Positions 41,862 to 44,434 of a stretch of DNA of 64,000 bases are shown here, one piece after another. The position numbers were made by a program, and so were the translations under genes. Under the pieces are notes generated by a model that searched no databases, had not been told where the DNA came from, and saw nothing but the letters and a program-made list of their open reading frames with translations. Position 1 is the stretch's first letter; each line of letters opens with the position of its first letter. Location of the stretch: assembly GCA_963734185.1 (NCBI GenBank), contig CAVTGA010000001.1, forward strand, positions 386,711-450,710, given 5' to 3'. This stretch comes from an uncultured Alphaproteobacteria bacterium. Its GTDB lineage: Bacteria > Pseudomonadota > Alphaproteobacteria > Rhizobiales > Xanthobacteraceae.

Positions 41862-42380
41862 ATGTCAGACAGAATATACGTTGTATACACACCGTCGCCC
41901 CAAGTTCGAGGGGTATATCACGCCGCAATTCATTACCAGCGACGGGATGCTGCCGGAAATGTCATTCAGCATAGAGTTGTCGAGGCGGTCCCCGAAAAAG
42001 GAGGGGATCTCTGGTTGTTCGAGAAAGTCCACGGCGTTATCGAGGAGTTTTTTCGAAGCGATAGCGGGGCATCCCGCTTTGGGAAAATTCTGCCGAGAAT
42101 ACTTTTTCCTGAAAATCGCGATCAAGATGCTCCGTACGAAGTTATTGCGGAAGGAGCCGATCTCAGTACGAATTTCGATAAGATATTGCTGTTTGCTTTA
42201 GGCGTGGACCGGTGCATGTTTGCAAGCGCCCAGTCGCGGGGCGCGCGTGTTCGTGCCGACCTACATGAACGAGATCTATGCGTTTGCGCGCCGTTGAGGC
42301 CGAACCTGGGGCGCCAGACCCGTCTCATTGCGCGTCGGCGGTGGGCGGATCGAGCGCTGTGCGGCATTGATTGGACCTGA
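41862..42380 (+). CDS. hypothetical protein in a low-GC patch (3' end uncertain)
   Basis: The GC drop at 41.8-42.2 kb coincides with the ORF MSDRIYVVYTPSPQVRGVYHAAIHYQRRDAAGNVIQHRVVEAVPEKGGDLWLFEKVHGVIEEFF…. The 3' 260 bp overlap the minus-strand hydrolase ORF and cross the 42-bp direct repeat, so the true end is unclear. Confidence 0.35.
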   Translation: MSDRIYVVYTPSPQVRGVYHAAIHYQRRDAAGNVIQHRVVEAVPEKGGDLWLFEKVHGVIEEFFRSDSGASRFGKILPRILFPENRDQDAPYEVIAEGADLSTNFDKILLFALGVDRCMFASAQSRGARVRADLHERDLCVCAPLRPNLGRQTRLIARRRWADRALCGIDWT

Positions 42381-44209
42381 TGGCGTGCGACCAGCGCGTC
42401 GTCCGGCACGCCCTTGGCGCAGTCGATCGTCACGTGATGACCGACCGCCTCCAGCCCGTGGAATAGTTTGTCGCCGGCGGCGGCCGTCACGTGCAGGATC
42501 GGGAAGCCTGCGCTCCTGATCTGGTCGGCGAATTCGCGTTGCGAGCGGAACGAGACCGTTCGGTCGGCCGGATCCGATACGACGATGAGCCGCCGGCCGG
42601 TCTGGCGCTGCATCGTCTTTATGAAATCGACCGGGTCGTAGGCCGCCTTGATTTTGGTGCCGATCACCTTGCCGAGGTCGCGCTCGCGCGTCTTCACCGA
42701 TATCACGCCCGAGGTCATCACCGCGCACCCGATGTCGGCGCGCATCTGGACGAGCGCCGCCACGGTATGCCCACCGCCCGACTGGCCGACGAGATGGAAA
42801 TGCTTGAAGCCGAGGCGCTGCTCGAGCGCATCGAGCGCGGCGGCGACGATCTGCACCTCGCGCAGGGAGCGCCGGTGTTCGACATGATGACCGGACGAGC
42901 CATACATGCCGATGCGACCGACGATGAGATAGGGACCGCCATATTGGCGCGACCAGCGTTGCGCGCTGCGGAGCGCCGCGTTGGCCGTGACGCGCGCAGA
43001 GGGGGCGTTCAGCACGGGCTGGCCGTCTTGGATCGCGCCGATGTCGCCGGGGAAGAACACCATGGCGCTATCGTGCAATCCCCCGGCGGTGGAAGCAAAA
43101 TAGCGCACGCAGTATCCCTGCCCGGCGACGCGCACCCAGAGCGCCATCTTGAGCGCGCTGCATTGCGCCTCGCTGCTCTCGACGCCGTGCAGCAGCGCGG
43201 GGGGCGTGTGCAGCGGACGGTCGTCAGCCTCCAGCAGCGGCCTCGCCTCCTTGTTCGCGTAGCTCGCGGCAAGCGCGTCGGCCATAGTGCCCCTGGCGCA
43301 GCTCGCCGCGATGTGGCGGGCCTCGCTCCACAGTTCGTGCGCCTGGGGATCGCGTGCGGCAGCAAGAATCTGTTGGACCGGCAGCCCATTCGCCTCCAGG
43401 GCCCGGACGTATCGGCTCTGCGAGCGCGCCGATATCACCGCATCGTCGGGGTCGGTAACGACGATGATGCGCAGCCCGGGGCGTTTCTCCACCTGACCGA
43501 CCAGCGCCAGGGGGTCGATCGAATCCGTGCGTCCGGTGACGTCCGTGGCCAGGCCGAATTCGGCGAAATGATCGCGCACGGCCACGAGCGCGGACGCAAG
43601 CACCACGCAACCGAGATCCGCGCGGCGCGCTAGCAAGGCAGCGGCCATGTGTCCGCCTTCGGCATATCCGGCCAAGTGCAGGCGCTGGAAATCATGCCGC
43701 GCCTTGATCGCATCGAGCGCCGCCGAGACCAGCGCGATTTCGCGCTGCGTGCGGCGCTCGGCGTGATGGCCGGAAGAGCCGTAGGTGCCCGGCCGTCCGA
43801 TCAGGACGTAGGGCAGCCGCAAGTCGCGCGACCATTTGGCGCTTCCGCTCTGTAGCTGCGTTGGACTTGCCTTGAGATACCACGCTTGAGGCCGGACCTC
43901 GCGCCGGCCGTTCGTGGAGACGGCGTCGCTGGAAAAGAACACGACGGGCTCGGCGCCGCTCCCGCCCGCCGCCGAATAATAGTAGCGGATGCATTCTCCC
44001 TGACGGTCGATGCTCACCCAGACAGCGGTCGGCAAGGCGGCGCATTCTGCCTGCGTCGCCAGCTTTCCCTTCAGCAGCTCCGGCCCCGAGAACGGCTCGG
44101 GCGAGAACTCGGTCGCCGGCGGCACCGGACCTGACTGGGCGCGGGTCGCCCCCGCGGCGCAGGCGGAGATGACGGCGACGCTCGCGAGCGCGGCAGCAAG
44201 ACGGGTCAT
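42122..44209 (-). CDS. secreted protein with two tandem alpha/beta-hydrolase-like repeats (3' end uncertain)
   Basis: Signal peptide MTRLAAALASVAVISACAAG. It is followed by two homologous roughly 300-aa halves (…YVLIGRPGTYGSSGHHAERRTQREIALVSAALDAIKARHDFQRLHLAGYAEGGH… and …YLIVGRIGMYGSSGHHVEHRRSLREVQIVAAALDALEQRLGFKHFHLVGQSGGGH…). The open frame runs through the left 42-bp repeat into low-GC DNA, so the real stop may lie near 42.40 kb. Confidence 0.5.
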   Translation of the reverse strand: MTRLAAALASVAVISACAAGATRAQSGPVPPATEFSPEPFSGPELLKGKLATQAECAALPTAVWVSIDRQGECIRYYYSAAGGSGAEPVVFFSSDAVSTNGRREVRPQAWYLKASPTQLQSGSAKWSRDLRLPYVLIGRPGTYGSSGHHAERRTQREIALVSAALDAIKARHDFQRLHLAGYAEGGHMAAALLARRADLGCVVLASALVAVRDHFAEFGLATDVTGRTDSIDPLALVGQVEKRPGLRIIVVTDPDDAVISARSQSRYVRALEANGLPVQQILAAARDPQAHELWSEARHIAASCARGTMADALAASYANKEARPLLEADDRPLHTPPALLHGVESSEAQCSALKMALWVRVAGQGYCVRYFASTAGGLHDSAMVFFPGDIGAIQDGQPVLNAPSARVTANAALRSAQRWSRQYGGPYLIVGRIGMYGSSGHHVEHRRSLREVQIVAAALDALEQRLGFKHFHLVGQSGGGHTVAALVQMRADIGCAVMTSGVISVKTRERDLGKVIGTKIKAAYDPVDFIKTMQRQTGRRLIVVSDPADRTVSFRSQREFADQIRSAGFPILHVTAAAGDKLFHGLEAVGHHVTIDCAKGVPDDALVARHQVQSMPHSARSAHRRRAMRRVWRPRFGLNGAQTHRSRSCRSARTRAPRDWALANMHRSTPKANSNILSKFVLRSAPSAITSYGAS
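42250..42291. repeat. left copy of a 42-bp direct repeat (ttcgtgccgacctacatgaacgagatctatgcgtttgcgcgc)
   Basis: An identical 42-mer recurs at 44393-44434. The 2.1 kb between the two copies is almost entirely the tandem-hydrolase gene. Confidence 0.7.
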
Positions 44210-44392
44210 GCTTTGCTTCCGAAAGCGGTTCCTTCGCCGCAATCCGCCAATCGGCCGCCGACTGGCGGGCCGCCACTATCCTATGATGACGGGCGCAAGC
44301 CAAGGCGCGACAGGCGCGATGGCGGTCGCGCTTCCCGTTGGCGATGCCGGCTGCGCCGCGATCGCCTTTGATGCCGGCGGATCGCGCAACTT

Positions 44393-44434
44393 CGTGCCGA
44401 CCTACATGAACGAGATCTATGCGTTTGCGCGCGC
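44393..44434. repeat. right copy of the 42-bp direct repeat
   Basis: Identical to 42250-42291. It is followed by an AT-rich intergenic patch at 44470-44730. Confidence 0.7.

What the first reader, a model, noticed from the sequence alone, without database searches (positions are those of the whole stretch)
42122..44434. 42-bp perfect direct repeat occurring at the C-terminal end of a secreted tandem α/β-hydrolase gene and again 2.1 kb downstream
ttcgtgccgacctacatgaacgagatctatgcgtttgcgcgc occurs at 42250-42291 and 44393-44434. Between the copies lies almost exactly one gene, an internally duplicated hydrolase with two roughly 300-aa homologous halves. Outside them are low-GC hypothetical ORFs (41.8-42.2 kb) and an AT-rich patch (44.47-44.73 kb). 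The pattern fits an insertion or duplication scar, for example att-like cores of a lost integrative element or a duplication junction, within accessory DNA. The gene ends on both strands near the left repeat are ambiguous: the plus-strand and minus-strand ORFs overlap by about 260 bp.
Basis: seen in the sequence. Interest (0 to 1): 0.6.

Follow-up and report, generated by a model that had tools for sequence, protein, structure and literature searches.

The report
42-bp repeat bracketing relocated hydrolase gene
A perfect 42-base sequence really does occur on both sides of one secreted double-domain hydrolase gene, and it is most likely an inert scar of the recombination that moved this gene into a patchwork region, not a new kind of genetic element.

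Summary
The repeat is real. It has only two copies in 64 kb. Identity falls to background immediately outside it.

It brackets one complete gene plus its upstream region: a signal-peptide-bearing tandem α/β-hydrolase. An independent short-read contig breaks exactly k-1 nt inside the right copy, so this is probably not an assembly artefact.

It is not a REP/MITE, an integron attC, a transposon target duplication, an RNA or a conserved protein motif. Scans of 185,579 species genomes, JGI metagenomes and viral contigs gave no hits. No recombinase matched in the larger ORFs of the window.

In all five independent relative loci read, the hydrolase sits between gatCA and gatB without flanking repeats. 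Here it lies elsewhere, next to a doubly truncated foreign low-GC gene pair.

Both convergent ORFs at the left copy are run-ons. The hydrolase lacks its family stop, and the low-GC gene is truncated at residue ~121. This explains the 259-bp overlap.

Best reading (confidence ~0.45) is an att-like or Campbell-type insertion scar. No close relative exists, so no empty site could be tested. Interest is low to moderate.

The parts
42250..42291 (+). Left copy of the exact 42-bp direct repeat
   Evidence: It lies about 40 nt beyond the last residue of the hydrolase that aligns with homologues, and about 25 nt beyond the end of orfL homology.
44391..44432 (+). Right copy of the exact 42-bp direct repeat, 182 nt upstream of the hydrolase start codon
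   Evidence: A Logan short-read contig of run ERR11571147 begins at a position corresponding to window 44403, which is 30 nt (k-1 if that assembly used k=31, assumed) inside this copy.
42292..44390 (.). Bracketed 2,099-bp segment: the hydrolase gene plus 181 nt of upstream DNA, with host-type composition (GC 0.65-0.71)
   Evidence: No terminal inverted repeats and no other ORF with a family match.
42335..44209 (-). Homologous part (625 aa) of the tandem α/β-hydrolase. It has an N-terminal signal peptide. The C-terminal half has the invariant GQSGG serine. The N-terminal half has Ala at the nucleophile position.
   Evidence: - 144 homologues of 610-630 aa at 48-60% identity.
- Alignments A2 and A5.
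- The two halves are 36% identical.
- AlphaFold model with pLDDT 89.7; Foldseek matches to S9 peptidase and esterase α/β domains.
42122..42334 (-). Run-on tail of about 70 codons (plus stop) on the hydrolase ORF. It has no counterpart in any homologue and reads through the left repeat copy, antisense into orfL'.
   Evidence: Alignment A2: homologues stop 8-23 residues after the conserved Gln611, whereas the window ORF continues for 84.
41862..42224 (+). orfL': a low-GC foreign gene (GC3 0.48), truncated after residue ~121 of a 150-166 aa family. Its ORF then runs on through the repeat in another frame to 42380.
   Evidence: - Only two homologues, P0128 and P0129, at 53-54% identity.
- The BLASTP alignment ends at residue 121.
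- The missing tail is not found elsewhere in the window.
- GC by codon position.
41647..41805 (+). orfK': a C-terminal remnant of the gene that precedes orfL homologues in other contigs. It is truncated at its 5' end close to the TctC terminator.
   Evidence: blastx and BLASTP against L086 and L087 (43% over 56 aa, E = 3e-11).
42225..42249. Flank A: a GC-rich spacer of unknown origin (~76% GC by my count of the sequence) between the end of orfL homology and the left copy
   Evidence: It is not similar to the DNA left of the right copy.
44433..44471 (+). Flank D: 13 codons, in frame with the repeat (…FVPTYMNEIYAFAR-AERPDHASLPQP*), ending in TAG exactly where GC drops
   Evidence: The repeat has GC 0.43/0.36/0.86 by codon position in this frame (P≈0.014 after correction for three phases). 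The 62-aa ORF has no homologue.
44480..44720 (.). AT-rich stretch within the 780-nt gap between the hydrolase (-) and the small membrane-protein gene (+). It may be a native divergent intergenic region.
   Evidence: The only promoter-like match lies at 44553-44525 on the minus strand (0.8 such matches expected by chance).
44994..45269 (+). Orphan gene for a small hydrophobic (putative membrane) protein, 91 aa, GC3 0.85. It is the right-hand neighbour.
   Evidence: The only database match is itself (P0130).
40535..41524 (+). TctC/Bug-family solute receptor gene, the left-hand host-type neighbour, followed by hairpins
   Evidence: Pfam TctC, E = 2.6e-62. Orthologues at 65-79% identity in 80 Xanthobacteraceae-type loci, none with the hydrolase within 10 kb. 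The hairpins were read by eye.

Best explanation
**Proposal.** The two 42-mers are the duplicated crossover segment (attL/attR-like) left when a ~2.1-kb piece of DNA recombined into a site that already held one copy of the 42-mer. That piece carried the hydrolase gene, its upstream region and one copy of the 42-mer.

**Mechanism.** The event was a Campbell-type single crossover. It was catalysed either by a site-specific recombinase that is no longer nearby, or by RecA acting on a short identical block. Such a crossover places one copy of the shared block at each end of the inserted DNA. It leaves four unrelated flanks around two identical cores, and that is the anatomy seen here.

**Setting.** The recipient site lay in a decaying mosaic region, next to a foreign toxin/immunity-like gene pair (orfK'-orfL') that is truncated at both ends.

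**Present state.** The repeat is probably inert today. It could still allow rare loss of the hydrolase gene by recombination between the copies. The 259-bp overlap of the convergent ORFs is a by-product: the hydrolase lacks a stop at the point where its homologues end, orfL' has lost its native 3' end, and both ORFs read across the junction.

**Shown:** the repeat, its sharp edges, its two-copy status, the gene content, the displaced synteny and the truncations.

**Inferred:** the insertion event itself, its direction and the enzyme involved.
For: - **Anatomy.** The repeat is an exact 42/42 direct repeat with abrupt loss of similarity on all four sides.
- **Content.** It brackets exactly one complete gene plus 181 nt of upstream DNA.
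- **Displaced synteny.** In all five independent contig sets read for homologues (L001, L002, L003-5, L088/89, L090/91), the hydrolase lies in the gatC-gatA...gatB interval. The three loci checked for flanking direct repeats (L001, L002, L004) have none. No gat gene matched among the larger window ORFs scanned, within -42/+20 kb. None of 80 loci anchored on the adjacent TctC orthologue carries the hydrolase.
- **No paralogue.** No second copy above 60% identity is on record for this genome. This points to relocation rather than duplication.
- **Mosaic surroundings.** The neighbourhood holds truncated foreign genes and sharp GC steps.
- **Reality of the repeat.** An independent short-read contig ends k-1 nt inside the right copy.
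- **Precedent.** Decayed integrase-less elements that keep attL and attR (CIMEs), and accretion of elements at att sites, are described in PMC5704250.
Against: - No tyrosine or serine recombinase domain matched in the bracketed segment or in the larger ORFs scanned across the 64 kb. ORFs under about 200 aa were mostly not scanned.
- The bracketed DNA has host-type composition (GC3 0.83 against 0.92 for the neighbouring TctC gene). Nothing marks it as foreign.
- The GC boundaries sit 25-45 nt outside the repeat copies, not at them. An extra assumption is therefore needed: that the recipient site A-core-D was itself a small GC-rich remnant.
- No tRNA or recognisable gene end serves as target. 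The coding-like periodicity of the 42-mer is only weakly significant, and the ORF has no homologue.
- The origin of a 2.1-kb circle is unexplained.
- 42 bp is close to the minimum length for RecA-mediated exchange (my own knowledge).
- No empty site or excision product could be examined.
Confidence: 0.45

Rival explanations
1. **Local templated copy.** The hydrolase, its upstream DNA, the right copy and flank D form one native contiguous block. The left copy is a short 'filler' copied from 2.1 kb away by template switching or break repair. This happened when the foreign orfK'-orfL' fragment was joined, illegitimately, to the 3' end of the hydrolase gene. The same break removed the last codons and the stop of the hydrolase.
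For: - Only 67 nt (flank A plus the left copy, 42225-42291) are 'extra' relative to a simple host/foreign junction.
- Host-type composition runs uninterrupted from 42225 to about 44475 and resumes in the next gene.
- The plus-strand frame is open across C-core-D.
- No recombinase is needed, and none was found.
- It explains the lost hydrolase stop and the truncated orfL with a single junction.
- A convergent TctC-hydrolase pair also exists in L002.
Against: - Templated insertions of tens of nucleotides are rarely documented in bacteria (my own knowledge).
- The displaced synteny of the hydrolase relative to gatCAB then needs a separate, older rearrangement.
- The origin of flank A stays unexplained.
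Confidence: 0.2
2. **Staggered-cut duplication.** The repeat is a true target-site duplication. The 2.1-kb segment was inserted at breaks staggered by 42 nt, and the gaps were then filled in. The process would be transposition-like or Cas1/casposase-like, but with an unusually long stagger.
For: The duplication is perfect, with sharp edges immediately abutting the inserted segment.
Against: - Known transposon and casposon target duplications are 2-15 bp (my own knowledge).
- There are no terminal inverted repeats inside the copies.
- No transposase, Cas1 or other candidate enzyme gene matched among the ORFs scanned in the segment or window.
- The inserted DNA is an ordinary chromosomal gene.
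Confidence: 0.1
3. **Functional cis-element.** The 42-mer is a site kept in two places by selection. It could be an operator or recombinase-binding site, an RNA element at both ends of the hydrolase transcript, or the coding end of a small protein.
For: - 42/42 identity is preserved.
- The right copy lies in the probable 5' leader or promoter region of the hydrolase, and the left copy lies in its 3' region.
- The GC periodicity suggests a coding frame, FVPTYMNEIYAFAR.
Against: - There is no stable or unusual fold on either strand (z-scores -0.2 to -1.0).
- There is no Rfam match.
- There is no internal dyad symmetry.
- The peptide and the 62-aa ORF have no homologue among 1.84 billion representative proteins or in the word-indexed search of 5.8 billion.
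- No wobble-degenerate DNA match exists in any collection.
- Homologous hydrolase loci have nothing comparable.
Confidence: 0.05
4. **Assembly or polishing artefact.** The artefact would lie in a long metagenome-derived contig.
For: - The source is a single 3.13-Mb contig with no close relative.
- The run-on hydrolase tail could partly reflect an indel error.
Against: - A separately built short-read contig from run ERR11571147 starts exactly 30 nt inside the right copy. A k=31 graph would break there if the 42-mer has two different continuations in the reads.
- 42 is not a usual assembler k-mer or overlap length.
- The flanks are coherent genes.
Confidence: 0.04

Closest known systems
attL/attR of integrated elements, especially decayed integrase-less remnants (CIMEs, cis-mobilizable elements) and accretion at att sites (definition in PMC5704250)
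   Same: - Two identical direct repeats of a few tens of bp bracket a discrete DNA segment.
- The flanks are unrelated.
- There is no recombinase inside the segment.
- The setting is decayed mosaic DNA.
- One copy is followed in frame by a short tail and a stop, as if a gene's 3' end had been displaced.
   Different: - The bracketed DNA is a single host-type, family-conserved gene, not foreign cargo.
- There is no recognisable target gene (no tRNA, tmRNA or known protein).
- No cognate integrase was found in the 64 kb.
- Neither excision nor an empty site has been shown.
Campbell-type integration of a circular DNA by homologous recombination over a short shared block
   Same: It predicts exactly this topology: core, insert, core, with four different flanks and perfect identity confined to the shared block.
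   Different: The shared block is only 42 bp, near the lower limit for RecA-dependent exchange (my own knowledge). The circular donor and the origin of its copy of the 42-mer are unknown.
Integron gene cassettes bounded by attC (59-base elements)
   Same: A single gene is bracketed by short repeats of attC-like size. GCGCAAC precedes the right copy and GTTGAGG follows the left copy, and each matches 6 of 7 positions of the R''/R' consensus.
   Different: - There is no imperfect-palindrome hairpin.
- The two consensus-like boxes lie on different copies.
- There is no IntI, no attI and no cassette array.
- Integron insertion does not duplicate a 42-bp core.
Transposon or casposon target-site duplications
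   Same: A perfect direct duplication directly abuts an inserted segment.
   Different: The 42-bp length compares with 2-15 bp in known cases. There are no terminal inverted repeats and no transposase.
REP/BIME/MITE-type dispersed repeats. Genuine examples occur in this window at 15.76-16.16 kb.
   Same: It is a short sequence that is repeated and largely non-coding.
   Different: It has two copies only, no palindrome and no hits in any collection.

Membership tests
attL/attR of a site-specific integrative element (GI/ICE/IME/CIME) | Identical direct repeats bracketing a discrete segment, with unrelated outer and inner flanks | tested here: met
   42/42 identity. Flank similarity equals that of shuffled controls.
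attL/attR of a site-specific integrative element (GI/ICE/IME/CIME) | A tyrosine or serine recombinase gene inside or next to the element (not required for a CIME) | tested here: not met
   The Pfam scans returned no integrase or resolvase family. They covered the hydrolase, the neighbouring ORFs and most ORFs of ≥200-250 aa across the window. Small ORFs were not scanned exhaustively.
attL/attR of a site-specific integrative element (GI/ICE/IME/CIME) | Target is the 3' end of a tRNA, tmRNA or protein gene, restored by the element's copy | tested here: inconclusive
   - No tRNA or tmRNA lies at the site.
- In one frame the repeat shows coding-like GC periodicity, and each copy is followed by a stop 2 or 13 codons later.
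- The ORF has no homologue, and no gene body precedes the left copy.
attL/attR of a site-specific integrative element (GI/ICE/IME/CIME) | An empty site (single core) or an excised circle exists in related genomes or in the population | not testable with these tools
   The closest available relatives are 60% (hydrolase), 53% (orfL) and 79% (TctC) identical. The 42-mer is absent from all collections. Raw reads of ERR11571147 cannot be accessed.
attL/attR of a site-specific integrative element (GI/ICE/IME/CIME) | The bracketed DNA is compositionally or phylogenetically foreign | tested here: not met
   GC is 0.65-0.71 and GC3 is 0.83, like host genes. Divergence from relatives (57-60%) resembles that of the neighbouring GGDEF-EAL gene.
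Integron cassette / attC | An imperfect inverted-repeat hairpin with paired R''/R' and L''/L' boxes | tested here: not met
   DNA folds of both copies on both strands are no better than shuffles (z-scores -0.2 to -1.0). The consensus-like boxes are split between the two copies.
Integron cassette / attC | An IntI integrase, an attI site and an array of co-oriented cassettes | tested here: not met
   No integrase matched. There are only two copies of the repeat.
Transposable element with target-site duplication | A short duplication (2-15 bp), terminal inverted repeats and a transposase | tested here: not met
   The duplication is 42 bp. No inverted repeats lie at the inner edges. The only gene inside is the hydrolase.
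REP/BIME/MITE dispersed repeats | Many genomic copies and palindromic structure | tested here: not met
   There are 2 copies in 64 kb. No matches were found in 185,579 species genomes, JGI metagenomes or IMG/VR, even with wobble positions freed. There is no fold. The rest of the source genome could not be searched.
α/β-hydrolase fold (the bracketed gene) | α/β-hydrolase fold with a nucleophile elbow (G-x-S-x-G) and conserved Asp and His | tested here: met
   - Pfam Hydrolase_4 and Abhydrolase_1 match just above their cut-offs.
- The model has pLDDT 89.7. Foldseek E-values are ~1e-9 against S9 peptidase and esterase domains.
- In the C-terminal half, GQS477GG, D546/D549 and H584 are invariant in 62 sequences.
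- The N-terminal half has Ala, Gln, Gly or Ser at the nucleophile position, so it is probably non-catalytic.

The most novel reading that the evidence does not exclude
The 42-mer is the recognition core of an unidentified site-specific recombinase encoded elsewhere in the genome. On this reading the hydrolase segment is a minimal, integrase-less, single-gene cassette that is moved in trans. It would resemble a CIME or an integron cassette, but with a non-palindromic 42-bp site. Ordinary chromosomal genes in these Xanthobacteraceae could then be shuffled as cassettes.
Probability: 0.08. Interest if true: 0.55.

Novelty: new member of a known kind. Interest (0 to 1): 0.25.

Why it matters
If the insertion reading is right, this locus is a clean example of a conserved chromosomal gene leaving its ancestral neighbourhood (gatCA...gatB) and landing in a decaying accessory region. 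The scar is still perfect, so the event was recent or the repeat is being maintained. The repeat also makes the hydrolase gene prone to deletion.

The practical value is mainly for annotation:
- The 695-aa hydrolase in the public record carries a ~70-residue tail with no counterpart in any homologue.
- The 195-aa plus-strand ORF is a truncated foreign gene fused to junction sequence.

Nothing here challenges current understanding of bacterial recombination.

Tried and rejected
1. **Conserved protein motif or gene end.** The wobble-degenerate pattern for FVPTYMNEIYAFA gave 0 hits in genome, viral and metagenome collections. The relaxed YMNEIYAFA pattern gave 0 in metagenomes. The 62-aa ORF gave 0 hits among 1.84 billion representatives. 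A composite query returned only orfL homologues.

2. **The 42-mer as the native 3' end of the low-GC orfL.** This was rejected on four grounds:
   - The homologues' tails do not resemble it.
   - An apparent MAFFT alignment to DNA downstream of orfL in L086 and L087 was no better than shuffles.
   - Codon-position GC differs: 0.86 against 0.48 at third positions.
   - The true orfL tail is absent from the window.

3. **Diverged paralogous gene ends or a gene-conversion tract.** The flanks show no residual similarity.

4. **RNA or structured element.** There is no Rfam hit and no significant fold.

5. **Integron attC, transposon target duplication and REP.** See the membership tests.

6. **Empty-site search.** TctC-anchored loci in 80 species share too little synteny and too little identity. 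Exact-protein look-ups of window proteins mostly failed.

7. **Plasmid and phage origin.** The flanks and the foreign fragment gave no meaningful plasmid hits.

8. **Function of orfK/orfL and the small neighbouring ORFs.** There were no Pfam, NCBIfam or PHROG matches.

9. **Sigma-54-like motif.** I noticed one by eye at the right copy / flank C junction on the minus strand. Its GG...GC spacing is one base short, so I dismissed it.

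
Full report
**1. Observation**

The 42-mer TTCGTGCCGACCTACATGAACGAGATCTATGCGTTTGCGCGC occurs exactly twice, both times on the + strand, at 42250-42291 and 44391-44432. The spacing is 2141 bp.

No shuffle of the window produced a match. Base composition predicts about 2e-21 extra copies. No further copy appears with up to three mismatches or in a short-word BLAST.

The repeat finder stretches the pair to 56 nt at 91%. 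The extra 14 nt match at only 9 positions. Flanks of 20-100 nt on either side align no better than shuffled sequence. The repeat is therefore a sharply bounded, perfect 42 bp.

One piece of independent evidence shows it is real. The small protein encoded at 44994-45269 (P0130) is also on record on a 1781-nt Logan contig of run ERR11571147, at positions 592-867. This places the first base of that contig at window position 44403, exactly 30 nt inside the 3' end of the right copy. A k=31 de Bruijn graph would end a contig there if the 42-mer has two different right-hand continuations in the reads. The k value is my assumption about that assembly.

**2. What lies between and around the copies**

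*The bracketed gene.* The interval 42292-44390 holds one gene on the minus strand, with its ATG at 44209. The public record annotates it as 695 aa (P0001, 100% identity, from a 3,129,897-bp contig).
- Its two halves are 36% identical over 296 columns, E = 1e-63.
- Pfam places it just above the α/β-hydrolase cut-offs.
- An AlphaFold model built on 62 homologues is confident (pLDDT 89.7, pTM 0.85).
- Each half matches S9-peptidase and esterase α/β domains (Foldseek E ~1e-9).
- The N-terminus looks like a signal peptide (sequence; inference).
- The C-terminal half keeps an invariant GQSGG serine, together with Asp and His.
- The N-terminal half has Ala at the nucleophile position, and that position varies in the family. 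This half is probably non-catalytic.

*The hydrolase tail.* Homologues are 610-630 aa long and cover only 85-89% of the window protein. They end 8-23 residues after the conserved Gln611, whereas the window ORF continues for 84 more residues. The extension is Arg-rich, reads through the left repeat copy and runs antisense into the next gene.

*The low-GC neighbour.* On the plus strand, the ORF starting at 41862 is a real gene. It has just two database homologues of 150-166 aa at 53-54% identity. Homology stops at residue 121, near position 42224. The ORF then runs on through the repeat in a different frame, as far as 42380. The missing tail is nowhere else in the window.

*Its upstream partner.* The region 41647-41805 encodes the C-terminal remnant of the gene that also precedes the two homologues in their contigs. 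The low-GC patch is thus a ~0.6-kb fragment of a foreign two-gene module (orfK'-orfL', GC3 0.48), truncated at both ends.

*Composition.* GC jumps from 0.43 to 0.70 at about 42205-42225, which is 25-45 nt left of the left copy. It falls again at about 44475, which is 43 nt right of the right copy and coincides with a TAG that closes the plus-strand frame running through the repeat. Beyond an AT-rich ~240 nt lies an orphan small-protein gene with host-type codon usage (GC3 0.85). The AT-rich patch may therefore be an ordinary divergent intergenic region rather than foreign DNA.

**3. What the repeat is not**

- *Structured element:* it has no significant fold or dyad on either strand, no Rfam match, and no inverted repeats at the inner edges of the bracketed segment.
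- *Dispersed repeat or conserved motif:* a pattern with all wobble positions freed found nothing in one genome for each of 185,579 species, in IMG/VR or in JGI metagenomes. A shorter nine-residue version found nothing in metagenomes.
- *Recognisable coding sequence:* in the frame FVPTYMNEIYAFAR the 42-mer has GC 0.43/0.36/0.86 by codon position. This is coding-like but only weakly significant (P≈0.014 after correction for three phases). The 62-aa ORF containing the right copy has no homologue among 1.84 billion representative proteins. The composite protein search returned only the orfL relatives.
- *Recombinase-associated:* Pfam scans of the ORFs around the repeat and of most ORFs of ≥200-250 aa across the 64 kb returned no integrase, resolvase or transposase. 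The only mobile-element signal is the 5' end of a group II intron at the far right edge of the window.

**4. Comparative evidence**

*No close relative.* The best non-self hydrolase is 60% identical, the best orfL homologue 54%, and the best orthologue of the adjacent TctC gene 79%. The source genome is not among the species representatives. An empty-site test at nucleotide level is therefore impossible with these data.

*Family synteny.* At gene-order level the picture is informative. In all five independent contig sets read for hydrolase homologues, the gene lies in the interval between gatC-gatA and gatB:
- L001;
- L002, from GCA_022841625.1;
- L003-L005;
- L088 and L089;
- L090, from GCA_028290465.1, together with L091.

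TctC, amidohydrolase or patatin genes are variably interspersed in that interval. The three loci checked for flanking direct repeats (L001, L002, L004) have none.

*The window differs.* No gat gene matched among the larger ORFs scanned, within 42 kb to the left or 20 kb to the right. None of the 80 TctC-anchored loci from Pseudolabrys, Rhodoplanes, Bradyrhizobium and related MAGs has the hydrolase within 10 kb.

In two loci that also contain GroEL (L013, L083), the genes corresponding to window 51.0-55.5 kb follow GroEL within a few kb, and the TctC orthologue lies on their other side. The window's ~14 kb between GroES and 50.8 kb is thus a lineage-specific patchwork. It contains MFS, DctP, TctC, orfK'L', the hydrolase, orphan ORFs, a Hint-domain protein and an RTX protein.

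The hydrolase is therefore out of its family's usual place, and only here is it bracketed by a repeat.

**5. Mechanism**

The anatomy is two identical cores in direct orientation with four unrelated flanks: A-core-B...hydrolase...C-core-D. A single crossover between a circular DNA (core-B...C) and a site A-core-D produces exactly this arrangement. The crossover could be made by a site-specific recombinase, in which case the copies are attL and attR. It could also be made by RecA on a short identical block.

Integrase-less remnants that retain both att sites (CIMEs), and successive accretion of elements at an att site in decayed arrays, are documented (PMC5704250). A variant of that scheme fits the truncated orfK'-orfL' fragment sitting directly to the left.

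I take this as the best explanation, with modest confidence (0.45), for four reasons:
- the bracketed DNA looks native;
- no recombinase or target gene can be identified;
- the GC boundaries are offset from the repeat;
- no empty site is available.

*Main rival (0.2).* The block hydrolase-C-core-D is contiguous native DNA, and the left copy is a 42-nt templated filler. It would have been made when the foreign fragment was joined illegitimately to the 3' end of the hydrolase gene. This neatly accounts for both truncations, but it relies on a process that is poorly documented in bacteria.

*Weaker alternatives.* These are a 42-nt staggered-cut duplication (0.1), a selected cis-element (0.05) and an artefact (0.04). 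Across all the scar-type readings, I put the probability that the repeat is a non-functional by-product of rearrangement at about 0.75-0.8.

**6. Comparison with known systems, and novelty**

The repeat works like an att-site pair or a Campbell junction. Membership of the class of integrative elements cannot be claimed. The repeat and flank criterion is met. The recombinase and foreign-cargo criteria were tested and not met. The target-gene criterion is inconclusive, and the empty-site criterion is untestable. Integron attC, transposon target duplication and REP/MITE each fail defining features that I tested.

This is a new instance of a known kind of feature, a recombination scar. Interest is low to moderate. 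Its practical value is in correcting two run-on gene models and in flagging a relocated, deletion-prone copy of a conserved, uncharacterised tandem hydrolase.

Noticed in passing
window 42335-44209 (-), with homologues in L001-L005 and L088-L091: The tandem α/β-hydrolase belongs to a family conserved in Xanthobacteraceae-like contigs and has no solved or named relative by sequence. The family sits in the gatC-gatA...gatB interval. Only the C-terminal half keeps the nucleophile serine. The N-terminal half keeps Asp and His but has Ala, Gln, Gly or Ser at the serine position, so it looks like a pseudo-enzyme domain.
   Followed up: partly
window 42122-42334 (-): The hydrolase ORF lacks the stop codon expected from its family and carries a ~70-residue Arg-rich run-on tail. 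A TGA lies one frame over near 42316, so a single-base indel, real or a sequencing error, could be responsible.
   Followed up: partly
window 41647-42224 (+); L086 1-632; L087 1-832: orfK'-orfL' is a rare two-gene module with only two other occurrences on record and no family annotation. It resembles an orphan toxin-tip/immunity pair, and a Hint-domain protein and an RTX protein lie 4-9 kb to the right. In L086 and L087 the DNA just after orfL is conserved in a third reading frame (HDPAGPxGELLEFFAPGLNEPLR...) that the gene callers did not annotate.
   Followed up: partly
window 31003-31065 (+): Rfam finds a tRNA-like sequence (54 bits, model positions 5-66) that ARAGORN does not call. Its 3' acceptor strand does not pair with its 5' end, so it looks like a tRNA fragment or pseudogene. 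It might be an old att remnant, but no integrase is adjacent.
   Followed up: partly
window 63911-64000 (+): The 5' end of a group II intron (RF02001, 55.9 bits) is cut off by the end of the window.
   Followed up: no
window 15763-16161: A cluster of REP-like palindromes is built on CCTCCCCCCTTGTGGGGGAGG, with several inverted pairs of 29-55 nt at 85-90% complementarity. These are genuine dispersed-repeat material and are unlike the 42-mer.
   Followed up: no
window 13115-13146 and 34881-34912: A 32-nt inverted pair, 94% complementary (GAGCATGATCTTTTCCGAAAACCG...), lies 21.7 kb apart. It is probably another small dispersed repeat.
   Followed up: no
window 49070-50592, within ORF 47742-50795 (+): There are 6.2 tandem copies of a 246-nt unit (93% matches) inside an RTX calcium-binding protein gene.
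   Followed up: partly
window 46470-46700 and 47386-47505: Pro/Gly-rich 24-54-nt tandem repeats lie inside and just after a Hint-domain protein gene (46013-47353). That gene is preceded by very low-GC ORFs (GC 0.39-0.44) at 45.4-46.0 kb.
   Followed up: partly
window 37.0-50.8 kb compared with L013 and L083: In two related loci, the orthologues of window 51.0-55.5 kb follow GroEL/GroES within about 2 kb, and the TctC orthologue lies on their far side. The ~14 kb between GroES and 50.8 kb in the window is a lineage-specific patchwork of relocated host-type and foreign genes.
   Followed up: partly
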